Source: Candidatus Nomurabacteria bacterium (lineage in GTDB: Bacteria; Patescibacteriota; Minisyncoccia; Phycocordibacterales; UBA918). From it: a stretch of DNA of 64,000 nt. How positions within the stretch are numbered: position 1 is the first letter of the stretch; each line of letters begins with the position of its first letter. A model generated the notes under the pieces. The model did not search any database. It was not told the DNA's origin and worked only from the letters and a program-made list of their open reading frames with translations. Shown in pieces: positions 1-54,080 of the stretch. A program made the position numbers and the translations under genes. The stretch spans positions 116,241 to 180,240 of the forward strand of contig JACKGC010000001.1 of NCBI GenBank assembly GCA_020632135.1, read 5' to 3'.

Positions 1-22
1 TGATAAATATAGCTAAAATGCT

Positions 23-161
23 GTAGCTGGCGGACAGGGACTCGTCCCGCCTTTTCTAATTCGCTACGCTCATAAGAACACTGGGCGCGGCTAGCCGACA
101 AGCCCTCCTCGTAAACTCGTCGTCTTGTGTACCGGCTCCGCCGTTCGATCCCCTGTCCGCC
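23..161 (-). repeat. tRNA-end hairpin module, copy Gln-B (anti-arm + structured core + duplicate of tRNA-Gln 3' end)
   Basis: Minus-sense 161->141 GGCGGACAGGGGATCGAACGG is near-complementary to the T-loop/acceptor 3' strand of tRNA-Gln. 44->23 CGAGTCCCTGTCCGCCAGCTAC is identical to 1143->1122. The core shares CGGAGCCGGTACACAAGACGA..GCTTGTCGGC with the Ser copy and GTTCTTATGAGCGTAGCGAATTAGAAA with the Met copy. Confidence 0.8.
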
Positions 162-251
162 GAGCAACGGCAAAGGCCGCAAACACTGACGTGTTTGCGG
201 CCTGCCGATTGCTGGCTGTATGGGACGAAGTTCGAACTTTTCTCACGTCGC

Positions 252-857
252 CTAAGTAAAACATCCTATGTACCATGGACCATAGAAATGCTTCGCGTTC
301 ATCAAATCACCATTAAATAGCTTCTTAACTCTTTGCAAGCCTTCTTCATCCCAATTCGACCAGTCTGGCTTAAATACACTCGCTTCCATAACAAAACCTG
401 TTTCGTCCCATATGAGAGCACACCAGTTGTCGAGAATACCTGTTCCATCTGGAAAGGCGACTCTCAGTTGCCCGTCTGAAACATCAGTTTCAAAGTAAAT
501 ATCCTTGTATGGACTATCGCTTGAAGTAAGTTTTTCTGACTGAATCAGACCAACGATTTCTTGGTATTGTGGCATCTTCAATATAGTAAAAATTTCGTAG
601 GAATTAAAAAACAGCAAAACTGCAACTACTACAACGGAAACTAATTTTAAGAAGTAGTAAAACACGCTCTTGATATTCCCTTTTTTAGAATACTTTGCGT
701 AACTTACGACAAAATACAACACCCCCACAAACAACAAAACTATTCCTAACAAATCAGACAGAAACCAAAATTTAACCAGCAACGGATATGAAAATAGACT
801 GTATGTAAGTAAACATATAGTCCACATTAGGAAAACATTAGTTTTAATTGATTCCAT
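252..857 (-). CDS. Hypothetical membrane protein (cassette cargo; N-terminal TM helices, soluble C-terminal domain)
   Basis: The ORF runs 252..947. The ATG at 857 (MESIKTNVFLMW...) is preferred because the upstream 30 codons lie in the module/att repeat. The N-terminal half is hydrophobic. No recognisable family. Confidence 0.5.
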   Translation of the reverse strand: MESIKTNVFLMWTICLLTYSLFSYPLLVKFWFLSDLLGIVLLFVGVLYFVVSYAKYSKKGNIKSVFYYFLKLVSVVVVAVLLFFNSYEIFTILKMPQYQEIVGLIQSEKLTSSDSPYKDIYFETDVSDGQLRVAFPDGTGILDNWCALIWDETGFVMEASVFKPDWSNWDEEGLQRVKKLFNGDLMNAKHFYGPWYIGCFT

Positions 858-920
858 ATCAAAAGTATACCTTATCAGGGACTCGAACTTTTTTATGTTG
901 CTAAATATAGCTAAATTGTT

Positions 921-1073
921 GTAGCTGGCGGACAGGGACTCGGTCACGAATCACTAAGTATATCCTTTCGCTTCGCTCATGATCTACTAAGTGTTCGCGA
1001 CCCCGGCTCGCTGTTCGTCGCGCTAGGAAGCGCGCTCCTCACAACGCTGCGCCTTTCTCGTCCCTGTCTCGGC
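921..1073 (-). repeat. tRNA-end hairpin module, copy Gln-A
   Basis: Minus-sense 1073->1057 GCCGAGACAGGGACGAG is imperfectly complementary to CGAGTCCCTGTCCGCC at 942->927. The core contains GCGTTGTGAGGAGCGCGC, GACGAACAGCGAGCCGGGGTCGCGAA and ATGAGCGAAGCGAAAGG. It ends GTGAC|CGAGTCCCTGTCCGCCAGCTAC. Confidence 0.75.
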
Positions 1074-1082
1074 ATCTATGAC

Positions 1083-1121
1083 GACAGAAAACACTCAGCG
1101 TGAAGCTGAGTGTTTTCTGTC
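1083..1121 (-). terminator. Perfect hairpin immediately 3' of tRNA-Gln
   Basis: gacagaaaacactcagc-gtga-gctgagtgttttctgtc forms a 17-bp stem. There is no clear U-tract after it. Confidence 0.45.
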
Positions 1122-1125
1122 GTAG

Positions 1126-1196
1126 CTGGCGGACAGGGACTCGAACCCCGATAGACGGCACCAAAAACCGTAGTCCTACCATTAGACGATCCGCCA
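1126..1196 (-). tRNA. tRNA-Gln(UUG)
   Basis: The reverse complement TGGCGGATCGTCTAATGGTAGGACTACGGTTTTTGGTGCCGTCTATCGGGGTTCGAGTCCCTGTCCGCCAG folds as a cloverleaf. The anticodon loop is TTTTGGT. CCA is not encoded. Confidence 0.9.
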
Positions 1197-6813: not shown

Positions 6814-7083
6814 AGCCAATGCTCGGGATTGAACCGAGGACCTCATCCTTCGCTTACACCCTTATTTTTTAATAATCGGCTATTAAGGGGCTAGACTGTA
6901 TCTTGTTCCTAGCAAGGAACTCCCTTGGCAGTCGTTCGGGCCTCGCGCTAGCGATGCCACGGTCTTGACCAGTCCGTTGGCTATTGACCGTTATTCAGGA
7001 TTCATCTGGTGCATTACTACACCAGCGGGCAGGGGTCTGTGCGACCCACCATGGATGCGCTCTACCGACTGAGCTACATTGGC
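6814..7083 (-). tRNA. tRNA-Thr(GGU) interrupted by a group I intron
   Basis: The 5' exon is GCCAATGTAGCTCAGTCGGTAGAGCGCATCCATGGT (7083->7048). The 3' exon is AAGGATGAGGTCCTCGGTTCAATCCCGAGCATTGGCT (6850->6814). The joined exons give a canonical 73-nt cloverleaf with loop AT-GGT-AA. Confidence 0.85.
6851..7047 (-). other. Group I intron (about 197 nt, no ORF) in the anticodon loop after U36
   Basis: The 5' exon ends in U and the intron ends in G. ACGGUCAAUAGCC, AACGACUGCC and CAAGAUACAGUCUAGCC resemble the conserved P/Q, R and S (AAGAUAUAGUC) core elements of group I introns. Splice positions are inferred to within a few nt. Confidence 0.7.
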
Positions 7084-7683
7084 ATATGAAGTTGTACGCA
7101 ATTCTTCGATTGCGCGGTAGATACTATCACGAATTTTTGTATTTGAAAAATAAATTGTAAGTACCCCGTATTCACTTTTGTGCCTATAGGTACCCTTTGC
7201 AACCGACTCGGAAACGACAACTTTTTGAAACTTTTCTGGTGAGACGCCCAGCCTCTTAGACCAATAGCTTCGAGCTAGGTCGGGACTAGTGTCAGTAAAA
7301 ATTTGCAACCCGAACCGTAGTCGAGTTTCATCAATTTTAAATATCGTTTTGAGGAAGTCTAGGAACACTCGAAGCAAATCAGGATCTGTATTCCCTAGGC
7401 GGATTGCCGTTTTGGACACTTTGTTACCTTCTCCCCACCACAAACCCAAGCCCAACCCATACAACAACCATTCCGACTCATTTCTTGGTTTTATGAAACG
7501 ATATGGGTCTCCACTAGGATTAGCTATCACATACTGTGCATCAGACAAACTACGTTTAGGTATAGCGTGTTTGCGCAACCAATAGTTTACCTTGTTTTCC
7601 GAACAACCCACCCGCACTGCAATTTGCTTTGCTGACTGTTTTTGTTCCACATAGACTTTCACAAGAAACTTTTTCTTCAGCAC
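6991..7683 (-). CDS. HTH + LAGLIDADG-like homing-endonuclease-like protein (free-standing; ORF runs into the tRNA-Thr gene)
   Basis: GTG start at 7683. The N-terminal HTH is SAKQIAVRVGCSENKVNYWLRKH. One LAGLIDADG-type motif is LLYGLGLGLWWGEGNK followed by LGNTDPDLLRVFLDFL. It is a paralog of 8617..9297. Homology ends near 7084, and the last ~30 codons are tRNA exon/intron sequence. Confidence 0.6.
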   Translation of the reverse strand: MLKKKFLVKVYVEQKQSAKQIAVRVGCSENKVNYWLRKHAIPKRSLSDAQYVIANPSGDPYRFIKPRNESEWLLYGLGLGLWWGEGNKVSKTAIRLGNTDPDLLRVFLDFLKTIFKIDETRLRFGLQIFTDTSPDLARSYWSKRLGVSPEKFQKVVVSESVAKGTYRHKSEYGVLTIYFSNTKIRDSIYRAIEELRTTSYANVAQSVERIHGGSHRPLPAGVVMHQMNPE

Positions 7684-7999: not shown

Positions 8000-8004
8000 C
8001 AGAA

Positions 8005-8043
8005 CAACAAAAAGGGCTGACTTCATGTCAGTCCTTTTTGTTG
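8005..8043 (+). terminator. Hairpin terminator after tRNA-Asp
   Basis: caacaaaaagggctgac-ttca-tgtcagtcctttttgttg, with the T-run in the descending arm. Confidence 0.6.
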
Positions 8044-8066
8044 ATCAAGCGACAGAGCAAAGTGCC

Positions 8067-8189
8067 TGCGCACTTTGCGTACGGACTCGAAAGCCGGAAC
8101 GATGTGAGGAATGTGTGACGAACGAGTGAGGCGGGGTCGCGAAAAATTTTCAGAGAAAATTTATTTGTGACCGAGTCCCGTCTGGCGCA
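8067..8189 (+). repeat. tRNA-end hairpin module, copy Asp (cargo-less mini-element)
   Basis: The anti-arm TGCGC..ACGGACTCGAA (8067-8090) is complementary to CGAGTCCCGT..GCGCA. The core is AGCCGGAACGATGTGAGGAATGTGTGACGAACGAGTGAGGCGGGGTCGCGAAAAATTTTCAGAGAAAATTT. It ends TGTGAC|CGAGTCCCGTCTGGCGC (8172-8188), identical to 7982-7998. Confidence 0.75.
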
Positions 8190-8203
8190 TCTAGTACATA
8201 AAC

Positions 8204-8230
8204 GGTCGGACCCTACGGGTCCGACCTTTT
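8204..8230. terminator. Bidirectional hairpin terminator
   Basis: ggtcggaccc-tac-gggtccgacc is flanked by an A-run and a T-run. Confidence 0.6.
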
Positions 8231-8246
8231 ATAAGGTGTCGACAGG

Positions 8247-8468
8247 AGGAATCGAACCTTACAGGTTCAGTACAGGTTGTCGCTGATTTTTTCGCCAGCT
8301 CAAAATCAGCTGGCAACCTTTTCGATCCCTCACAGACTGTCCCCCAGACAATCTGTGAGGAATCGAACCTTACAGGTTCAGTACAGGTTGTCGCTGATTT
8401 TTTCGCCAGCTCAAAATCAGCTGGCAACCTTTTCGATCCCTCACAGACTGTCCCCCGGACAATCTTCC
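8247..8468 (-). repeat. Two tandem 111-bp units of a variant tRNA-end hairpin module
   Basis: Units 8247-8357 and 8358-8468 are nearly identical. Each (minus-sense) reads TCTGTGAGGGATCGAAAAGG ... CTGTAAGG|TTCGATTCCTCACAGA. The array ends in an orphan tRNA-like 3' end, TCGATTCCTCCTGTCGACACC (8257->8237). Confidence 0.8.
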
Positions 8469-8506
8469 ATCGACAGCCAAGAACCTGCTAACGCGGTCTT
8501 TCTTTG

Positions 8507-8578
8507 TGCCGACGGGTAGAGTCGAACTACCGTCTAGGGTTTATGAGTCCCTCGTTCTAACCGTTGAACTACGCCGGC
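8507..8578 (-). tRNA. tRNA-Met(CAU), elongator-type (could also be Ile2)
   Basis: GCCGGCGTAGTTCAACGGTTAGAACGAGGGACTCATAAACCCTAGACGGTAGTTCGACTCTACCCGTCGGCA. The 1:72 pair is G:C and 11:24 is U:A. Confidence 0.8.
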
Positions 8579-8616: not shown

Positions 8617-9297
8617 CTAATTTCCACCCAGTTTACACGCTTCTATCAAACCCTGAATCTTGTACTTTAAATCAGTACTCTTACACACACGTAGAGACAA
8701 AACGCCGTAGTAAGAATCGTGATTCTCATACCGTTTTTTAGGTCTTCCCTTCAACATAATAAACTTGAACCTACCTGATGGTATATTTAGTTCTTTTGAC
8801 CAAAACAAAATAATATCCCGCTCCCGCTTCGCATGCGTTTCAGACACATACACATACGGAGTAAACTGTTCTTCAGACACATGCAAACAACGTTCAAACC
8901 ATAACTTACCAAGCTTTATCAGCTGCGGATCTGAGTTAACCAACGCAGCCATGCCGCTTCTAGATTTCACTCCCTCACCCCAATACAACCCTATTCCTAA
9001 AAGACGTAGATCACGCTCAGACAATTTTCCGATCTCAACAACACCTTTTTCTTGATAATCCCTAATCGCCGCCAGTCGCTTCTCCCTGTTCTTGTTTGCA
9101 CCAATCTGTCTTCCGACATTACCAGCATCGATCTGCTTCTGCTGTAACTTTTCCTTCTGTTTATCAGTCAATGAAATACCCTGACACCAGGCACTGACCG
9201 AACTTTTTGACACACCAAGAACAGCTGCAATATCTTTAATACTCTGACCACGGCGACGTAACTCAATCGCGCGCTTCTTCTGTGCTGGTTTAGACAT
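8617..9297 (-). CDS. HTH + LAGLIDADG-like homing-endonuclease-like protein (free-standing)
   Basis: 226 aa. The HTH is SIKDIAAVLGVSKSSVSAWCQG. The motif LRLLGIGLYWGEGVKS is followed by LVNSDPQLIKLGKLWFERCL. It is a paralog of 6991..7683 and ends 38 nt upstream of tRNA-Met. Confidence 0.6.
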   Translation of the reverse strand: MSKPAQKKRAIELRRRGQSIKDIAAVLGVSKSSVSAWCQGISLTDKQKEKLQQKQIDAGNVGRQIGANKNREKRLAAIRDYQEKGVVEIGKLSERDLRLLGIGLYWGEGVKSRSGMAALVNSDPQLIKLGKLWFERCLHVSEEQFTPYVYVSETHAKRERDIILFWSKELNIPSGRFKFIMLKGRPKKRYENHDSYYGVLSLRVCKSTDLKYKIQGLIEACKLGGN

Positions 9298-11426: not shown

Positions 11427-11565
11427 GTTTTATATTTTATGTGAGTAAGGAAGCAGCCGACGGCTTGCTTATCTATAGTGTAGTACTATGGTAAGTGAAC
11501 TTTGGTTGCATGGGTGCACAAAAGGCCGGGCGCGAAGCGCCCGGCCTTTTACTTCCCTCGTTTAC

Positions 11566-11726
11566 TTGTTGCGGGGCCCGGAATCGACATCAAGTTTCTA
11601 ATTCGCTACGCTCATAAGAACTTGTTGGCTCGGCTCGTCTGTTTTTGCTCTAGGAAATGAGCAAAAACATGACTCCGCCCGTTCGATTCCGACGCAAGCC
11701 AAGCAGTTGGCTTGCTGACCCCGCAG
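11566..11726 (-). repeat. tRNA-end hairpin module, copy Met (cargo-less mini-element)
   Basis: The minus-sense anti-arm is CTGCGGGGT[25-nt inserted hairpin]TCGGAATCGAACGG. The core is GCGGAGTCATGTTTTTGCTC..GAGCAAAAACAGACGAGCCGAGCC..GTTCTTATGAGCGTAGCGAATTAGAAA. It ends in TCGATTCCGGGCCCCGCAACAA (11587->11566), identical to 11794->11773. Confidence 0.75.
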
Positions 11727-11730
11727 TTAT

Positions 11731-11773
11731 AATAATAGAAAAGGCCGGCATAAAGCCGGTCTTTTCTATTATT
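11731..11773 (-). terminator. Hairpin terminator after tRNA-Met
   Basis: aataatagaaaaggccggc-ataa-agccggtcttttctattatt. Confidence 0.6.
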
Positions 11774-11775
11774 TG

Positions 11776-11846
11776 TTGCGGGGCCCGGAATCGAACCGGG
11801 GTCTGGAGGTTATGAGCCTCCCGAGGTACCTCTCCTCTACCCCGCT
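11776..11846 (-). tRNA. tRNA-Met(CAU), initiator-like
   Basis: AGCGGGGTAGAGGAGAGGTACCTCGGGAGGCTCATAACCTCCAGACCCCGGTTCGATTCCGGGCCCCGCAA. It has an A1.A72 mismatch, an A11:U24 pair and G30G31:C39C40 in the anticodon stem. Confidence 0.8.
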
Positions 11847-11880
11847 GTATGCTGTTTACTTGTTTTCTTCTTCTACAACT

Positions 11881-11947
11881 GTCTCCAGGGAGGTTACGAG
11901 AGCAAATTTGATCGCTCCGCTCGGTCCCTCTCCTCTACCCCGCTGTA
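11881..11947 (-). repeat. Partial pseudo-copy of the 5' half of tRNA-Met upstream of the gene
   Basis: Minus-sense ACAGCGGGGTAGAGGAGAGG (identical to the tRNA 5' end), then GACCGAGCGGAGCGATCAAATTTGCTCTCG, then TAACCTCC (the 3' side of the anticodon arm). No T-arm is present. Confidence 0.7.
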
Positions 11948-30255: not shown

Positions 30256-30390
30256 GCGGAGAGTAAGGGATTCGGTCAGGAATAAATTTCTACGAAATTT
30301 TTCACGACCCTGACTCGCCGACAAGCACTCACTTCACTCTGTTCCGTTCGTCTTGTGTACCGGCTCCGTCTTTCGAATCCCTTACTCTCG
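30256..30390 (-). repeat. tRNA-end hairpin module, copy Ser
   Basis: The minus-sense anti-arm GAGAGTAAGGGATTCGAAAGA (30388->30368) is complementary to TTCGAATCCCTTACTCTC of tRNA-Ser. The core is CGGAGCCGGTACACAAGACGA..GCTTGTCGGCGAGTCAGG..AAATTTCGTAGAAATTT..CCTGAC. It ends in CGAATCCCTTACTCTCCGC (30274->30256), identical to 31513->31495. Confidence 0.8.
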
Positions 30391-30518
30391 CGCAATAGCA
30401 AACGACCGGAAAGCATTCGCTTTCCGGTCGGCTATTGCGGGCGGTCTCGAGTTAGAACCGTGTGATACCAAGCCCTGCCTGACCGATTGATTAGTTCTCA
30501 GATTATACGTCTCGAGCG

Positions 30519-31445
30519 CTACACACCAAACAAGAAATATAAGATGACTCCACCTCCAACGGTCACAATAAGCCCAATGATTATTTGGCCAACAGGTTTT
30601 TGATGCCAATGTATACTTGTGTCCATTTCATTTTTTTCAGACTTTTGACTACCAACCAATATATCTCCACCAGCAGTAATTGGCCCTCCGGCAATAATTC
30701 CAAGGTTCGGCTTGTCTTCAGCTTTCTCTAAATTTTTGACTGCTGGTGAACTTAAGTTCTCGGGCTCTGCAATAACATCGTCCAGAGAATTATTGAGTAT
30801 TTTGAACTTAAACTTCACTTCATCAAACCCGTCCCCACGACTCTCCATTTTAATGTCTACAATCTGTATGAGGGCGTATTTGTCGTAAATATTTCGAAAA
30901 AGCACAACTTGCCCAATCTCGGGAGACCGGGCTCTAGACGTCCCGTCATATTTCTTATTTAAATTAACATCATTTATATCGCTAGCCCCCTTTACCATAG
31001 CTAGACTACGTATGGATGAATGATCCGTGTATACATGTATTGCCTGTTGTGATGCGCCAGAAAACCTGATTCCAAATAATTCCTCATCTTGCCCAAGAAA
31101 ATAAGTATGGTCATTACTTGAGTAATCAAAACTCACTTCACCCTCTCTATTTGGGTTTTTGTTGTCGTAATAATTTTTCTTTCGAGTTGTAGCTTCTAAA
31201 TACTTTTCTATACGATCTGGGGTTGAAGAAAATTCTTCATGATAAATATCTTCACCTTCATTTTTCACTAACAAAACACCTTCCGCCTTTAAACTGTGAA
31301 GGAGTTTCCTAATATGCTTGATTTCGACCTCCTGAGGGTTATTACGAGAAATTAATTGCTGAGCAATAATCAGAACAGAACGGCTTCCAGTGCGATCTTG
31401 AAAATATTGAATGATGTCTGCTTCAGTTTTATATTCTAGTTCCAT
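30519..31445 (-). CDS. Hypothetical protein (cassette cargo; possible N-terminal wHTH, C-terminal TM anchor)
   Basis: 308 aa. The C-terminal TM helix is VGQIIIGLIVTVGGGVILYFLFGV. No family is recognised. Confidence 0.5.
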   Translation of the reverse strand: MELEYKTEADIIQYFQDRTGSRSVLIIAQQLISRNNPQEVEIKHIRKLLHSLKAEGVLLVKNEGEDIYHEEFSSTPDRIEKYLEATTRKKNYYDNKNPNREGEVSFDYSSNDHTYFLGQDEELFGIRFSGASQQAIHVYTDHSSIRSLAMVKGASDINDVNLNKKYDGTSRARSPEIGQVVLFRNIYDKYALIQIVDIKMESRGDGFDEVKFKFKILNNSLDDVIAEPENLSSPAVKNLEKAEDKPNLGIIAGGPITAGGDILVGSQKSEKNEMDTSIHWHQKPVGQIIIGLIVTVGGGVILYFLFGV

Positions 31446-31495
31446 AATAAATATTAGAACTAGACTAGCTAGTGTCTCGTGCTAGCTCTAAACGG

Positions 31496-31583
31496 CGGAG
31501 AGTAAGGGATTCGAACCCTTGAAGCCTTTAAGGGGCTTACCTCGTTAGCAGTGAGGCGCTTTCGACCACTCAGCCAACTCTCC
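31496..31583 (-). tRNA. tRNA-Ser(GCU)
   Basis: GGAGAGTTGGCTGAGTGGTCGAAAGCGCCTCACTGCTAACGAGGTAAGCCCCTTAAAGGCTTCAAGGGTTCGAATCCCTTACTCTCCG. It has a long variable arm. Confidence 0.9.
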
Positions 31584-40562: not shown

Positions 40563-40636
40563 CCGTCAGTAGCTCAGTTGGTTAGAGCGCAGAGCTTATA
40601 CCTCTGTGGTCCCTGGTTCGAATCCAGGCTGACGGA
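40563..40636 (+). tRNA. tRNA-Ile(UAU)
   Basis: CCGTCAGTAGCTCAGTTGGTTAGAGCGCAGAGCTTATACCTCTGTGGTCCCTGGTTCGAATCCAGGCTGACGGA. The anticodon stem is CAGAG/CTCTG and the loop is CT-TAT-AC. Confidence 0.85.
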
Positions 40637-40640
40637 CATT

Positions 40641-40774
40641 GGACATGTCCGAGCGAGACGAAACATATCGTAGGATATACCCCCATAGTCCCTGGTTGAC
40701 CTAGAAATTAAGGAGAGCTTGCTCGACTGTAATTTCGACAATACTCTTATGGTGCGAATCCAGGAGGACGGACA
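40641..40774 (+). repeat. Degenerate tRNA-end module, copy Ile
   Basis: GTCCCTGGTT (40688-40697) and CGAATCCAGGagGACGGACA (40755-40774) reproduce the tRNA-Ile T-arm and 3' end, split by a 57-nt insertion at TT|CGA. A weak anti-arm TGTCCG plus GACGAAAC lies at 40646-40664. Confidence 0.5.
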
Positions 40775-47490: not shown

Positions 47491-47899
47491 GGGGATGCCA
47501 GGCATCGACGGTTAGTCGTGTCGGATGTGTGCAGTGTCGAAAACTGGTAATCAATTCGTTAAAAGGTTCCATTCTGTACGTGCAAACAAAGCAGTACCAA
47601 GTCCTTACGCTCGCGCGTTTGGATTCACACCCGCTTTCGCGTAATAACGCCAGCCGATGTGATGCTCCGCTCATAAACGTCTCATACGTGAGCCGGGGTA
47701 GAATAGCCACGAGACTGTGGAAACCATTGTCGTTGTCATAGGTTTCCAAGATTGTAACAACTCGAGACCGTAGTGTTTGGTTAGTCTTCTAGCTACAGGT
47801 CTTTAAACAGAAGCAATTCTGACAAAGGCTAACTACGCACTGTAGACTCACCTTCGCACCCTGATTCGGACGGGGTTTCGATTACCCCCATCTCCACCA
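47491..47899 (+). ncRNA. ssrA: tmRNA (ssrA), CCA encoded
   Basis: The 5' end GGGGATGCCAGGCATCGACGG pairs with the 3' end GGACGGGGTTTCGATTACCCCCATCTCCACCA, giving a G3.U70 pair. The candidate tag reading frame is gca aac aaa ... gct ttc gcg taa taa (ANKAVPSPYARAFGFTPAFA). Confidence 0.9.
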
Positions 47900-48086
47900 A
47901 ATCTGAAGCAAATCGAGCCTTATTCCATAAGGCTCGTTTTGCTGTATTTTGAAGAGATGTTTGGAGATTAGAACCTGTATGGACAAATTTCTATTTTATT
48001 ATATAATCACAATCAGCTTACGGCCCTGAAAGGCCTCTAAGTTCCCGCCTTTTAGGCATAACACTTGAATACTGAGGAGAGACAAC

Positions 48087-49145
48087 ATGAGTCTTGTAGT
48101 CGCAATCCTTGGCGAACCGTCCGAAAAGATCGTGAACGGGGAGCTGAAGTCTGTCGTACCTTTCGTGGGTGCTGATAGAGAGGGTAAATTTGCCCAAATG
48201 GGCATCGGTCTACTCTTCCCTGACGAAGGAAAGGGTATGATCTGGGGTCTTGTCATGCCACACGCCCTGATCAAATCGTGGCGTGGCATGAAACTGCTTG
48301 AACAGGTCGACCGCATCGAACACGGCACACTCTGTGGCTGCTGGACAATCGCAACCAGCGATGTGTCTGATAGCGACAAACGCCATCTCGATGAGCTTGC
48401 TGATCAGTTTGGCGGTATGGATGGCCTCGAAGAAGCCAGGGCGAAAGTTCTCGCTTCTGTACCGAGCGCTGAAGAAATCGACTCGATGATCAGCAACCTT
48501 CGCGAGAAAGAAGTTGGCGTCGACAGTTGGGATCTGACAGCGGAAATCGAAGCGGGCCGGATCGAAACCAGTCCTGCGATCGAGCTGATCATCAAGAAAG
48601 AAGATGAGGAGCGAGTCGCATACGCTCGGAAGGAAGAACAGATCAAGAAACCTGTTCCGCCTGAAGAAAGTCTCGCGCAGTTCTTTAAGGACTTGCGCAT
48701 TGGCAACTTCATCATCGGCGGCGGCTTCGGCGGGTATGGTATGGACTGGGGTCACATCGAACTGAAAGATCTCGACCAGACCGCTAAGCGTGACAGCTTC
48801 AGCGAGTACCTGACAGATGGTTTCACCCTTGAGCATACGACACAGGGACCCGAAACCTTCGCTGATGACGTTGCACCTGGCGTGACAATGTACCAGACGT
48901 CTTCCGGCGAGATCGAGAACCCCTGGTTCTTGGCCGCTGACGAGACAAGGTACACCTTCTTGTCGGCCAAGTTTCGTGACGAACGGTTCCACATCAAAGC
49001 GAAGGTGGAAAGCGCCGATGAACCGCCCCAGGAAGGCGAGTTCACCATCGCTCAGCTTCGCGAGATGATCGGACCAATCGAAATGCCACCTGCACCAACC
49101 CTTATCCAACGTCTGGCCAAGGGCGCACGCAGTCTCTTCAACTAA
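48087..49145 (+). CDS. Hypothetical protein (island cargo)
   Basis: 352 aa with a GAGGAGAG RBS and a strong terminator downstream. No family is recognised. Confidence 0.55.
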   Translation: MSLVVAILGEPSEKIVNGELKSVVPFVGADREGKFAQMGIGLLFPDEGKGMIWGLVMPHALIKSWRGMKLLEQVDRIEHGTLCGCWTIATSDVSDSDKRHLDELADQFGGMDGLEEARAKVLASVPSAEEIDSMISNLREKEVGVDSWDLTAEIEAGRIETSPAIELIIKKEDEERVAYARKEEQIKKPVPPEESLAQFFKDLRIGNFIIGGGFGGYGMDWGHIELKDLDQTAKRDSFSEYLTDGFTLEHTTQGPETFADDVAPGVTMYQTSSGEIENPWFLAADETRYTFLSAKFRDERFHIKAKVESADEPPQEGEFTIAQLREMIGPIEMPPAPTLIQRLAKGARSLFN

Positions 49146-49160
49146 CCTCTCACGAGGTAA

Positions 49161-49210
49161 CAGCCCGCAGAAAAGCGCCCGCAGAGGTTCGCTTCTGCGG
49201 GCTGCTTTTT
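49161..49210 (+). terminator. Rho-independent terminator after cargo ORF
   Basis: cagcccgcagaa...ttctgcgggctg followed by cttttt. Confidence 0.75.
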
Positions 49211-49340
49211 ATTTCACCACACATCAGTAACTTTCAGAAAATTGGGACACTCCATTTCAATCAAAGAGGTTTTAACTTCGTACAAAGATTTCCACGAGTA
49301 CAAAATCAGCTCACGCGTTTGCGTGGGCGATTTTTGTTCG

Positions 49341-49538
49341 TGGAGATGGGAGCGAGTGACCTGCGTCACTCGCGAGGTAATCGAAACGCCGGAGCGATGT
49401 TTTCTGCGGCTTTTGCCCGCCGCAGAAAACAAGCGAGGCGTGACCCGCGGCACCGTGTATTTTTGTGCACGAAGTGCTACAAAATACGCTGGTGACCGTC
49501 AGGTCAATTCCCGTCATCTCCACCAAATCTGAAGCAAA
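49341..49538 (+). repeat. tRNA-end hairpin module, copy tmRNA
   Basis: The anti-arm TGGAGATGGG[25-nt inserted hairpin]GGTAATCGAAAC is complementary to GTTTCGATTACCCCCATCTCCA of tmRNA. The core is GCCGGAGCGATGTTTTCTGCGG..CCGCAGAAAACAAGCGAGGCGTGACC plus a second hairpin. It ends GGTGACCGTCAGG|TCAATTCCCGTCATCTCCACCA. Confidence 0.8.
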
Positions 49539-49628
49539 ACGAGCCTTATTTTATAAGGCTCGTTTTACGTATATTTGAGATGAGAAGAAAAAGTTAGAAC
49601 CTTGTTTTTTGCTATACTAAAATCAAGT

Positions 49629-50108
49629 ATGAAAATAACACCCATAAAACAACGAGATGCGAGCGCCTGTGGGCCTACCAGTATTGAAATGACTCTAAAA
49701 TATTTTGGTGTGCCCCACACTATTTCAGACATCACTAAGGTTACTAACTACAAAAAAGAAGGGGGTATATACAACAAACAACTCGTGAATGTGCTGCAAC
49801 ACTACGGCCTTAAGACAAAAGTTCTGGAGAATGCCTCTTGGGAACAGTTAGTTGAACTAAACACTAAAGATTCAGTGATCGTCCTTTCCTGGATGCTTGA
49901 TGGCTACATCGGACACCTAAGCGTTCTAGACAAAGTTGATAAAGATCATATTTATCTCGCCGAACCTACTACCGGAGAAATATTAAAAATGGGCAAGATA
50001 AAGTTTCTTAGACTTTGGTTAGACTATGAAGCAAAAGATGAGGTGCCAATGTACCCAGAATCTAAATCTAACATTCAACTACGATGGATGTGCGTGGTAT
50101 CCAGATAA
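49629..50108 (+). CDS. Stand-alone peptidase C39-like domain protein (island-borne paralog)
   Basis: DASACGPTSIEMTLKYFG and GHLSVLDKVD are present, and FLRLWLDY parallels FVERW in the protein at 6246..6740. Confidence 0.6.
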   Translation: MKITPIKQRDASACGPTSIEMTLKYFGVPHTISDITKVTNYKKEGGIYNKQLVNVLQHYGLKTKVLENASWEQLVELNTKDSVIVLSWMLDGYIGHLSVLDKVDKDHIYLAEPTTGEILKMGKIKFLRLWLDYEAKDEVPMYPESKSNIQLRWMCVVSR

Positions 50109-50285
50109 AAATATTGATCCACCGAGCCAATCCTACAAATCCATCACCTGCAAGAAATTCGCACACTCCATTTGAATCAAAGAGGCTTTTGCCACCAGGG
50201 CATTTCCGAAATTATAGTCGGAATAAATCCTCCTTAATTTCTAGGTCTACCACCAGGGTATTTCTCCTTTTGGTATACTGAAACC

Positions 50286-53608: not shown

Positions 53609-54080
53609 TGGTACAATGCTATCATGCGGTACTGTGTATTGCAAGGTACTAATATCAAACTAAGGTCTTCCCCCGCTTTTTCTCGGCATTTCTGAAAAAT
53701 TGTCTGAATGGATCCTCCTTAAAAACTAGGTCTACCACAAGAGTATCTCCGTTGTGAGTATCTGTTTGTATTGAAGGTACCGCTGATTTTTGTAATCTAG
53801 GTGATCTGGACCTTGTTTCTCCGTCACACTGCCTACTAGTGCATGGGTTTTCCACCACACCTCGGGATAACCCCCGGGTAAGCCTGGTGGTTAAGCTGAT
53901 AACAACTCATGAATAAGCTGTGGATTAACTGTGTATAAAGAATGCAATATGCTTTCATGCAAAATCAATAGTGTAGGGTTGGTTCACGGCAGATACCCGC
54001 CACTTCCCCGCTCCCTCCCTTTGAAACCAGTGGCAGATATAGGTATGATGGTAGGCATTGCCATAAAAAATAAGTAACTT

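What the first reader, a model, noticed from the sequence alone, without database searches (positions are those of the whole stretch)
8235..8470. 111-bp tandem duplication of a variant module ending in an orphan tRNA 3' fragment
Two nearly identical 111-bp units (8247-8357 and 8358-8468) each contain, in minus sense, an anti-arm TCTGTGAGGGATCGAA and a matching TTCGATTCCTCACAGA. Their core differs from the main family. It can form two mutually exclusive hairpins: GCCAGCT..AGCTGGC, or GCTGATTTT..AAAAATCAGC. The array ends in TCGATTCCTCCTGTCGACACC, which looks like a tRNA T-loop plus acceptor 3' end. The 5' partner of that fragment is not in the window, and the adjacent tRNA-Met ends differently (TTCGACTCTACCCGTCGGCA). 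This could be a second module subtype plus a displaced original tRNA 3' end.
Basis: seen in the sequence. Interest (0 to 1): 0.55.

Follow-up and report, generated by a model that had tools for sequence, protein, structure and literature searches.

The report
Duplicated mini-cassette in a dead tRNA-Met
The 111-bp repeat is a duplicated, cargo-less mobile cassette that once inserted into a tRNA-Met gene of a tiny CPR bacterium; it belongs to a seemingly undescribed family of small elements that carry a stretch complementary to the tRNA gene they target.

Summary
In detail: 109 bp occur twice with one mismatch (8465-8357 and 8354-8246, minus strand), separated by "AC".

The terminal fragment GGTTCGATTCCTCCTGTCGACA is the displaced 3' end of the native elongator tRNA-Met(CAT). 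It matches an intact tRNA-Met in a groundwater contig exactly. Syntenic relatives carry an intact tRNA-Met at this position.

The unit is a real second module subtype. A covariance model finds 9 distinct members in 6 other Patescibacteria loci. The fold has four helices, and 14 of 25 pairs show compensatory change.

Related strains show the intact form: tRNA-Met, terminator, target-complementary arm, core, then the displaced 3' end. They also show a filled-versus-empty site at tRNA-Asp, and a main-type core behind the same arm. So these are mobile, integrase-less cassettes that insert at the T-loop.

The window copy is decayed. Its apparent "tRNA-like arm" beyond CCTC is a conserved internal hairpin. 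The head tRNA gene has been replaced by a 73-nt tRNA-Met linked to an HTH ORF.

The enzyme and the duplication mechanism are not established. My inference is a folded single-strand recombination site used in trans.

The parts
8506..8578 (-). tRNA-Met(CAT), 73-nt type (T arm GGTAG/CTACC). It now heads the array but is not the partner of the orphan fragment.
   Evidence: ARAGORN and Rfam tRNA at 65 bits. It is nearly identical to L040:3721-3793, which also follows a homologous HTH ORF. It matches the orphan at only 17/23 positions and differs from the 75-nt type found in relatives.
8476..8505 (-). Spacer with no terminator. It contains AGGTTCTTGGC, possibly a decayed T-box of the old cassette's left end.
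   Evidence: No terminator-like site was found here. There is no significant similarity to the 5' part of the native tRNA-Met (shuffle p about 0.8). The T-box resemblance was seen by eye only.
8469..8475 (-). TGTCGAT, an anti-acceptor segment complementary to the native acceptor 3' strand TGTCGAC(A). That strand is itself palindromic.
   Evidence: It occupies the same position (2-3 nt before the YGGGR hairpin) as TGTTGACGG in L021 and GTGTCGAC in L026.
8445..8465 (-). Hairpin AGATTGTC-CGGGG-GACAGTCT, copy 1. This is the start of repeat R109.
   Evidence: Homologous hairpins with covarying stems and a YGGGR loop occur in L021, L026, L008a and L014.
8432..8444 (-). Anti-T arm GTGAGGGATCGAA, copy 1. 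It is complementary to the T-loop plus T-stem 3' strand.
   Evidence: This is helix P0 of model R1. Four of its six pairs show compensatory changes across members.
8368..8431 (-). Variant core, copy 1. P1 is AGGTTG/CAACCT, P2 is GCTGATTTT/AAAATCAGC, followed by GTACT and P3 GAACC-TGTAA-GGTTC.
   Evidence: cmsearch hit at 8359-8440, 93.8 bits, E 4e-22. Covariation is shown.
8357..8367 (-). T-box TTCGATTCCTC at the end of copy 1.
   Evidence: Read from the sequence. It is the 3' strand of P0.
8355..8356 (-). AC filler between the two 109-nt copies. It extends the local hairpin (CAC pairs with GTG).
   Evidence: It is absent from the one-unit contig L002.
8246..8354 (-). Second copy of R109: hairpin with TGGGG loop (8354-8334), anti-T arm (8333-8321), core (8320-8257) and T-box (8256-8246).
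   Evidence: cmsearch hit at 8248-8329, 93.8 bits.
8235..8258 (-). Orphan fragment GGTTCGATTCCTCCTGTCGACACC. This is the displaced 3' end (G52-A73 plus CC) of the native 75-nt-type tRNA-Met(CAT). It overlaps the T-box of copy 2.
   Evidence: Exact 22-mer match inside the intact tRNA-Met of L013. Intact tRNA-Met genes sit at the syntenic position in L014, L021, L031 and L039.
8204..8226 (.). Bidirectional terminator hairpin. It is the native terminator of the old tRNA-Met and is shared with the converging tRNA-Asp cassette on the plus strand.
8617..9297 (-). HTH ORF (226 aa) from a Patescibacteria-restricted family, linked to tRNA-Met. It is absent from the closest relatives that keep the native tRNA-Met.
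   Evidence: Pfam HTH_23 only. 128 homologues. The ORF lies directly upstream of tRNA-Met in L040 and L044. It is absent in L014, L021 and L031. The AlphaFold model has pLDDT 93 but no significant PDB fold match.

Best explanation
The window comes from a Patescibacteria (CPR; Kaiserbacteria/Paceibacteria-type) chromosome. Many of its tRNA and tmRNA genes carry small integrase-less cassettes inserted at the T-loop.

An intact cassette reads, in tRNA sense: a replacement tRNA 3' end; a terminator with or without cargo; an 'anti-arm' complementary to that 3' end, often split by a YGGGR-loop hairpin; and a structured core. The core's last helix (P3) ends exactly at the junction with the displaced native 3' end. 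Two unrelated cores exist, the 'main' type and this 'variant' type, and they are interchangeable behind the same anti-arm.

The 8235-8475 region is a decayed variant-type cassette in the native elongator tRNA-Met gene. Its right-end module (hairpin, anti-T arm, core, T-box) has been duplicated once in tandem. The native 3' end and its terminator survive as the orphan. The head of the old gene has been replaced by an HTH-ORF-linked 73-nt tRNA-Met.

Shown here: the anatomy, the conserved fold, the target, mobility in relatives, and the identity of the orphan.

Inferred: the module is a cis-acting recombination site that works folded as one strand, in tRNA sense. The anti-arm pairs with the cassette's T-box copy, giving a three-way junction (P0, P1/P2, P3) whose branch point is the crossover. 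A trans-encoded, still unidentified enzyme recognises it. The duplication itself most likely arose in situ by replication slippage or template switching in this hairpin-rich DNA.
For: Repeat.

Orphan is tRNA-Met: exact match in L013. The fully syntenic closest relative L014 (NTP_transferase 91% identical) has an intact tRNA-Met and no HTH ORF, units or Asp module. L021, L031 and L039 likewise carry an intact tRNA-Met.

Family: blastn and regex hits in L008, L010 and L031. Model R1 finds 11 hits, 9 of them distinct, with E from 1e-9 to 1e-22.

Fold: 95.5% of cells are paired, 14/25 pairs show compensatory change, 0/500 shuffles reach the observed values, and slid controls give 32-49%.

Intact prototype: L021:10758-10992.

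Interchangeable cores: L026 has a main-type core behind a homologous anti-arm and hairpin at the same tRNA-Met. It encodes the same NTP_transferase protein as L021.

Mobility: L022 carries a 148-bp variant cassette at tRNA-Asp with a 20-bp repeat TCGAGTCCCGTCTGGCGCGC. L021 lacks it.

Non-autonomy: about 40 window ORFs scanned have no integrase, transposase or RT hit. None appears in the gene tables within 10 kb of the arrays in L014, L021, L022 or L031.

Strand: G.T outnumbers A.C by 7 to 3 in the core helices, and by 11 to 3 when anti-arms counted by eye are added.

Pre-duplication form: the single-unit contig L002 has exactly the predicted sequence.
Against: No recombinase was identified, so the mode of recombination (ssDNA, dsDNA or RNA-guided) is untested.

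The duplication is not a clean slippage product. It needs an extra base (the AC filler), and one endpoint coincides with the T-box, which could point to enzyme-mediated recombination instead.

The covariation alignment was fitted to the model, and only 9 distinct sequences are available. The wobble bias is weak (p about 0.03).

One family member (L014:9620-9760) sits in the D-arm region upstream of tRNA-fMet, which the T-loop model does not explain. In L031 and L010 the distal '3' ends' do not look like functional acceptor strands.

The replacement of the head tRNA gene is inferred from comparison, not observed.
Confidence: 0.7

Rival explanations
1. The module encodes a small tRNA-like guide RNA. 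The module is transcribed, and the anti-arm plus the downstream tRNA 3' end form an acceptor/T-like helix that RNase P, RNase Z or the CCA-adding enzyme could trim. The resulting RNA, with the core as scaffold and the arm as guide, directs a trans-encoded recombinase or transposase to the matching tRNA gene. This would be analogous to bridge RNA or omega RNA systems.
For: The helices covary. Wobble pairs favour the tRNA-sense strand. The arm changes in step with the target tRNA: P0 has 4/6 covarying pairs, and targets include Met, Asp and others. Two unrelated scaffolds sit behind the same arm. In the window there is no terminator between tRNA-Met and the array, so co-transcription is possible.
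Against: There is no promoter-like site in the array. In intact cassettes a terminator separates the tRNA from the module. There is no adjacent recombinase gene, unlike IS110 or IS605 systems. There is no Rfam match. The arm is complementary to the gene including 3' trailer bases (CAA in L021), and in the folded form the arm is occupied by its own partner.
Confidence: 0.15
2. This is an ordinary double-stranded attP arm of satellite elements mobilised by a conventional tyrosine integrase encoded elsewhere in the genome or by a phage. On this view the inverted arm and the helices are binding-site arrangements or chance by-products, and the tandem unit arose by unequal recombination between att repeats.
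For: The layout of a restored tRNA 3' end, a displaced 3' fragment and a T-loop crossover is the classical tDNA-island pattern. Tandem arrays and degenerate remnants are described for tycheposons. Filled and empty sites exist.
Against: Compensatory changes in 14/25 pairs argue for selection on a folded strand rather than on duplex protein-binding motifs. The same core types serve at least five different tRNA/tmRNA targets, with an arm that tracks each target. A sequence-specific integrase would not be expected to allow this. No integrase lies near any array examined.
Confidence: 0.1
3. The unit is a stand-alone MITE-like or rolling-circle (HUH) element with 21-bp terminal inverted repeats. It transposed twice, or was copied as a dimer, next to GTTC in the T-loop.
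For: The ends are 21-nt inverted repeats. A hairpin ends at the 3' junction, and insertion follows GGTTC, which is reminiscent of IS91/Helitron targets (my own knowledge). A rolling-circle mechanism would readily give head-to-tail dimers.
Against: There are no other copies in the window or in any fetched locus. There is no target-site duplication. Comparison with L021 and L026 shows the 'left TIR' is an internal hairpin plus T-box of a larger cassette. No HUH gene was seen.
Confidence: 0.05

Closest known systems
tDNA-integrating genomic islands and satellites (tyrosine-integrase type, e.g. Islander-type islands, Prochlorococcus tycheposons)
   Same: They insert inside a tRNA/tmRNA gene, and the element supplies a new 3' end. 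The displaced 3' fragment marks the far end. Successive insertions build arrays, and decayed remnants are common (window).
   Different: Cassettes here can be as small as about 150 bp. They encode no integrase, and none is nearby. They carry a target-complementary arm and a covarying structured core, neither of which the tycheposon paper I checked mentions (no 'hairpin'; its only 'inverted repeat' is a reference-list title).
Integron gene cassettes and attC sites
   Same: Both are small, often ORF-less or single-ORF cassettes in arrays. Both have a recombination site defined by an imperfect inverted repeat that is conserved as a fold rather than as sequence, on one strand, with the recombinase supplied in trans.
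   Different: The target here is a tRNA T-loop, not attI. No IntI, attI or Pc platform was seen. The crossover maps to the inner, core-proximal end of the stem, so the whole 3' arm (about 20 nt) belongs to the next unit rather than the 6 nt of R'. The R''/R' consensus is not met.
CTX-phi type IMEX: folded single-stranded attP used by host XerCD
   Same: Two inverted copies of a target-like site, separated by about 60-110 nt, can fold into a forked hairpin that mimics the duplex target. The elements lack their own recombinase, and tandem arrays are typical.
   Different: The target is a tRNA gene, not dif. There are no filamentous-phage genes. Use of Xer is untested.
MITEs / non-autonomous cis-mobilisable elements (CIMEs)
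   Same: Both are tiny, non-coding and dependent on a trans-acting enzyme.
   Different: There is no target-site duplication and there are no dispersed identical copies. The apparent terminal inverted repeats are a T-box copy and its anti-arm.

Membership tests
tDNA-integrating element (integrase-type island/satellite) | Inserted within a tRNA/tmRNA gene, with the displaced 3' fragment as a direct repeat at the distal end | tested here: met
   The orphan at 8258-8235 is the tRNA-Met 3' end. L021 has a 24-nt repeat and L022 a 20-nt repeat.
tDNA-integrating element (integrase-type island/satellite) | The element restores a functional 3' end of the target tRNA | tested here: inconclusive
   Met in L021 and L022 and in the window's main-type cassettes. 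Not met for the window unit, whose left end is CCTC-AC-hairpin rather than an acceptor strand.
tDNA-integrating element (integrase-type island/satellite) | Filled and empty sites among related genomes | tested here: met
   L022 (filled) versus L021 (empty) at tRNA-Asp. At tRNA-Met the site is empty in L014, L039 and L013.
tDNA-integrating element (integrase-type island/satellite) | An element-encoded tyrosine (or serine) integrase | tested here: not met
   No recombinase Pfam hit in about 40 window ORFs. None in the gene tables of L014, L021, L022 or L031.
Integron cassette / attC | A single-strand hairpin site conserved in structure, not sequence | tested here: met
   Covariation in P0-P3.
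Integron cassette / attC | R''(RYYYAAC)/R'(GTTRRRY) boxes with the crossover at G|TT at the base of the stem, plus an L box and extrahelical bases | tested here: not met
   The boxes read ATCGAA(C)/(G)TTCGAT. The junction is at the core-proximal end of the stem. No L box was identified.
Integron cassette / attC | An IntI gene, attI and Pc adjacent to the array | tested here: not met
   The array is headed by a tRNA gene, and no IntI-like ORF is present.
CTX-type IMEX folded attP | Two inverted target-like sites in the element able to form a forked hairpin | tested here: met
   The anti-arm and the T-box copy are separated by a 64-nt core. The fold has a z-score of -5.8 to -6.6 as RNA or DNA.
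CTX-type IMEX folded attP | Integration at dif by XerCD | tested here: not met
   The target is the tRNA T-loop. Enzyme use is not testable with these tools.
MITE | Terminal inverted repeats, a target-site duplication and many dispersed copies | tested here: not met
   Only the two tandem copies exist. There is no target-site duplication, and the inverted repeats are explained by comparison with L021 and L026.
tRNA / tRNA-like gene or any Rfam family | A match to the tRNA model or another curated covariance model | tested here: not met
   ARAGORN and Rfam at gathering threshold find nothing in 8235-8505. The E<=10 scan gives only chance-level hits.
IS110 bridge-RNA / IS605 omega-RNA guided elements | A guide RNA encoded next to its DEDD recombinase or TnpB/TnpA gene | tested here: not met
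   No such gene is found in the window or next to any array. RNA expression is not testable here.

The most novel reading that the evidence does not exclude
The cassettes could be a programmable site-specific integration system of CPR bacteria. In this reading a 10-22-nt arm base-pairs with the cassette's own copy of the target tRNA 3' end and so specifies which tRNA gene is hit. Either of two unrelated structured cores presents the crossover point at a three-way-junction branch point to an unknown trans-acting enzyme. This would be nucleic-acid-specified recombination without an element-encoded recombinase.
Probability: 0.3. Interest if true: 0.85.

Novelty: new variant of a known kind. Interest (0 to 1): 0.6.

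Why it matters
If the family works as inferred, CPR/Patescibacteria shuffle small gene cassettes at tRNA genes using minimal elements of about 150 bp. These are among the smallest and least tractable bacterial genomes.

The target choice of these elements appears to be written in a complementary arm, and their recombination site is a conserved fold. That would be a new route of gene flux in organisms with few recognisable mobile elements. It would also be a candidate for a retargetable integration system.

For genome annotation, the result explains orphan tRNA fragments, unannotated structured intergenic DNA and assembly breaks next to tRNA genes in these MAGs.

The specific 111-bp duplication is itself a minor, decayed by-product.

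Tried and rejected
Searches that found nothing:
- Exact-pattern scans for the variant hairpin 21-mer in viral contigs and GTDB genomes: no hits.
- The main-core 20-mer and a degenerate variant motif in viral contigs: no hits.
- Rfam at gathering and at E<=10: no family.
- Six literature searches: no description of such modules.

Leads that gave nothing useful:
- CreD-based loci at 56-60% identity gave no synteny at this spot. They did, by luck, contain family members in L008 and L010.

Ideas rejected:
- The spacer 8469-8505 as a remnant of the native tRNA 5' half: no significant similarity.
- The unit as a tRNA or tRNA-like gene: rejected.
- The anti-arm as a retroviral-type primer-binding site for mature tRNA: rejected, because the arm matches genomic trailer bases (CAA in L021) rather than CCA.
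- A fold-back, template-switch origin of the second copy: rejected, because the copy is direct and not inverted.

Full report
**1. The observation**

Tandem Repeats Finder reports 8246-8465, period 111, 2.0 copies, 99% matches. The repeat finder gives two 109-nt copies at 8246-8354 and 8357-8465.

Read on the minus strand, which is the sense of the neighbouring tRNA-Met, the region runs as follows:
- tRNA-Met(CAT), 8578-8506
- a 30-nt spacer
- TGTCGAT, 8475-8469
- GGA
- repeat copy 1: hairpin AGATTGTC-CGGGG-GACAGTCT (8465-8445), GTGAGGGATCGAA (8444-8432), a 64-nt core (8431-8368), TTCGATTCCTC (8367-8357)
- AC (8356-8355)
- repeat copy 2, the same 109 nt with TGGGG in the loop (8354-8246)
- CTGTCGACACC
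- a terminator hairpin, 8226-8204

As RNA or DNA a single unit folds far better than shuffles (z = -5.8 to -6.6).

The duplication is probably real. The inter-unit junction cannot be produced from a one-copy sequence. Two independent Logan contigs of the same species (L001, L004) end at 8427, exactly 30 nt after the single distinguishing base (8457). That is expected for a k=31 graph where two contexts converge (the k value is my inference). One ENA scaffold (L002) holds a single unit, which is either a haplotype or a collapsed repeat.

**2. Organism and synteny**

The flanking NTP_transferase is 100% identical to an NCBI protein named Candidatus Kaiserbacteria, on a contig of 651 kb. CreD relatives lie in Paceibacterota, Nomurabacteria and Kaiserbacteria MAGs. 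This is a CPR/Patescibacteria chromosome.

The closest relative retrieved is L014, whose NTP_transferase is 91% identical. Its gene order matches the window: GatC, GatA, NTP_transferase, tRNAs, peptidase C39, RF, FtsE, FtsX, CTP synthase.

**3. The orphan fragment**

The 22-mer GGTTCGATTCCTCCTGTCGACA has one exact hit in the metagenome collection. It is the 3' end of an intact tRNA-Met(CAT) in a Hainich groundwater contig (L013), directly after an NTP_transferase-family gene that is 32% identical to the window's.

In L014, L021, L031 and L039 an intact 75-nt tRNA-Met(CAT) with T arm GGAGG/CCTCC (GCAGG/CCTGC in L039) and acceptor GTCG.C./..GTCGAC (GCCGATG/CATCGGC in L039) follows NTP_transferase at the homologous spot. 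The orphan matches the L014 and L021 genes at 20/23 positions.

The orphan is therefore the displaced 3' end of the native elongator tRNA-Met, still followed by its terminator.

**4. The unit is a member of a family**

A low-stringency blastn of the unit against the fetched loci found related sequences in L008 (two copies) and L010. A motif scan added two in L031.

A covariance model (R1) built from six sequences then found 11 strong hits, 9 of them distinct. These include L021 and L022 directly behind the syntenic tRNA-Met, L022 behind tRNA-Asp, and L014.

On the model-fitted alignment four helices hold:
- P0: anti-T arm with T-box
- P1: AGGTTG/CAACCT
- P2: GCTGATTTT/AAAATCAGC
- P3: GAACC-TGTAA-GGTTC

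95.5% of cells are paired. 14 of 25 pairs show compensatory changes. None of 500 shuffles reaches the observed values, and slid controls give 32-49% pairing. Examples are P1 AGGTTG/CAACCT versus ACCTTG/CAAGGT, and P3 GAACC/GGTTC versus GAACA/TGTTC, GAAGC/GCTTC and GATTC/GAATC.

GCTGATTTT/AAAATCAGC is P2 and is conserved. No Rfam family matches.

**5. What an intact copy looks like**

In L021 (record CP060228.1, 951,832 bp) the sequence reads:
- tRNA-Met ending …GGTTCAAATCCTCCCGTCGACA
- a terminator
- TGTTGACGG, complementary to the acceptor 3' strand with one T.G pair
- a hairpin AGCTGTC-TGGGA-GACAGCT
- GTGAGGATTTGAA, complementary to the T-loop and T-stem
- the variant core
- TTCAAATCCTCCCGTCGACACAAA again, followed by the native terminator

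This has two consequences for the window. Its '21-bp inverted repeat' is really a T-box copy (TTCGATTCCTC), plus AC, plus the homologue of that internal hairpin, plus the anti-T arm. And TGTCGAT before copy 1 is the anti-acceptor segment.

L026 encodes the same NTP_transferase protein as L021. It has a homologous anti-arm and hairpin at the same tRNA-Met, followed by a main-type core ending GTGAC|CAAATCC. The two cores are therefore interchangeable.

L022 differs from L021 by a 148-bp variant cassette at tRNA-Asp, flanked by a 20-bp repeat running from the T-loop to the 3' end. That is a filled-versus-empty site, which shows mobility.

In L010 and L031 a variant module follows a main module in one array.

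In the window itself, main-type cassettes with or without cargo ORFs sit behind tRNA-Gln, tRNA-Asp, tRNA-fMet, tRNA-Ser and tmRNA. A short one of unclear type sits behind tRNA-Ile. Where an anti-arm is recognisable it matches its own tRNA end.

**6. Architecture and inferred mechanism**

In the variant type the element/target junction lies at the 3' end of P3, that is, at the branch point between P3 and P0.

By eye, the main type follows the same rule. A closing stem ends at the junction: GTCAGG/CCTGAC for Ser, GTCGC/GTGAC for Asp, GTCGCGAA/TTCGTGAC for Gln.

P0 changes with the target: 4 of 6 pairs are compensatory, and the targets include Met, Asp and others. G.T pairs outnumber A.C on the tRNA-sense strand, 7 to 3 in the core helices and 11 to 3 when anti-arms counted by eye are included.

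No integrase, transposase or reverse transcriptase was found in about 40 window ORFs, nor within 10 kb of the arrays in four relatives.

From this I infer a cis-acting site that functions folded as one strand and is used by a trans-encoded enzyme. The nearest analogies are integron attC and the folded attP of CTX phage (my own knowledge). This step is not shown. A processed guide RNA, or an ordinary duplex attP arm, remain possible.

**7. History of this locus (inference)**

- A variant cassette integrated in the native 75-nt-type tRNA-Met.
- The head of that gene was later replaced by an HTH ORF plus a 73-nt tRNA-Met. The same pair, with a tRNA differing only by a compensatory C2:G71 to T2:A71 change, follows NTP_transferase in L040, where the ORF is only 62% identical. 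More distant homologues also abut tRNA-Met in L044 and L045. Relatives without the ORF keep the 75-nt type.
- The window anti-T arm fits the orphan better (11/13, or 12/13 counting G.T) than the present tRNA-Met (8/13).
- The right-end module was then duplicated. The product is R109-AC-R109. This is not a clean slippage product, since the one-unit sequence predicts CCTC-A-AGATTGTC. The extra C extends the hairpin (CAC/GTG), which suggests template switching in quasi-palindromic DNA. An enzyme-mediated event at the T-box cannot be excluded.

**8. Comparison with known systems and novelty**

The general layout is that of tDNA-integrating islands and of tycheposon arrays. The integrase criterion is not met, however, and the target-complementary arm plus covarying cores are not features I could find described in six full-text searches. 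The integron, CTX-type, MITE, bridge-RNA and omega-RNA definitions each fail on at least one tested feature (see the membership table).

I rate the family as a new variant of a known kind (tRNA-gene-targeting integrative elements). The 111-bp duplication itself is a decayed local rearrangement within it.

**9. Limits**

- The covariation rests on 9 distinct sequences aligned to the model.
- Copy number, the enzyme, the strand or molecule that folds, and the order of events at this locus are unproven.

Noticed in passing
window 6814-7083 (-): tRNA-Thr(GGT) is split right after its anticodon (ATGGT | … | AAGGATG) by an insert of about 197 nt (7047-6851). The intact orthologue is L014:12171-12244. 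Neither ARAGORN nor Rfam (gathering, or E<=1) calls the gene or recognises the insert as a known intron.
   Followed up: partly
window 8617-9297 (-) and 6991-7683 (-); L040:3001-3793; L044:3001-3755: A Patescibacteria-restricted HTH protein family (128 homologues) lies immediately upstream of elongator tRNA-Met(CAT) in three distant genomes. A paralogue lies upstream of the split tRNA-Thr. The window and L040 share the same unusual 73-nt tRNA-Met type. The AlphaFold model is confident (pLDDT 93), but its C-terminal alpha/beta domain has no significant PDB match. It may be a selfish gene that travels with the tRNA.
   Followed up: partly
window 1-1196 (-), 8001-8190 (+), 11565-11846 (-), 30260-31583 (-), 40563-40772 (+), 47491-50190 (+): Main-type cassettes sit behind tRNA-Gln (two in tandem, one with a 231-aa ORF), tRNA-Asp, tRNA-fMet, tRNA-Ser (308-aa ORF), tRNA-Ile (short, type unclear) and tmRNA (352-aa ORF, then a peptidase C39 unit). 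Where recognisable, each has an anti-arm matching its own target. The cargo ORFs have no Pfam or PHROG hit.
   Followed up: partly
L014:9620-9760 (+); compare window 11847-11900 (-): A variant-type core lies upstream of tRNA-fMet. It is flanked 5' by AGCGGGGT, which is the tRNA 5' end in sense, plus a TGGGA-loop hairpin. It is flanked 3' by a pseudo-copy from the D arm onward. This is a different target position that the T-loop model does not explain.
   Followed up: no
L031:18890-18985 (+) and L014:18364-18449 (+): Weaker R1 hits lie behind tRNA-Gln. The L031 hit, the only one inspected, has a diverged core (P3 GGTCA-TGTAA-TGACC). This suggests further subtypes linking the variant P3 to the main-type GTGAC end.
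   Followed up: no
L040:3960-4200 (+): Behind tRNA-Asp there is a main-type module whose direct repeat covers the post-tRNA trailer and terminator (AGTTAG..AAAACACGTCTCGCAAGAGACGTG…) rather than the T-loop-to-3'-end segment.
   Followed up: no
window 8489-8493: Two further same-species contigs (L003, L005) end here, just upstream of the array. This may reflect strain heterogeneity at the spacer, but it remains unexplained.
   Followed up: no
window 40693-40715 (+) and 50230-50252 (+): There is a 23-nt inverted match at 96% identity (TGGTTGACCTAGAAATTAAGGAG). One copy is in the short element behind tRNA-Ile and the other in the tail of the tmRNA array. A related direct repeat lies at 53699-53749.
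   Followed up: no
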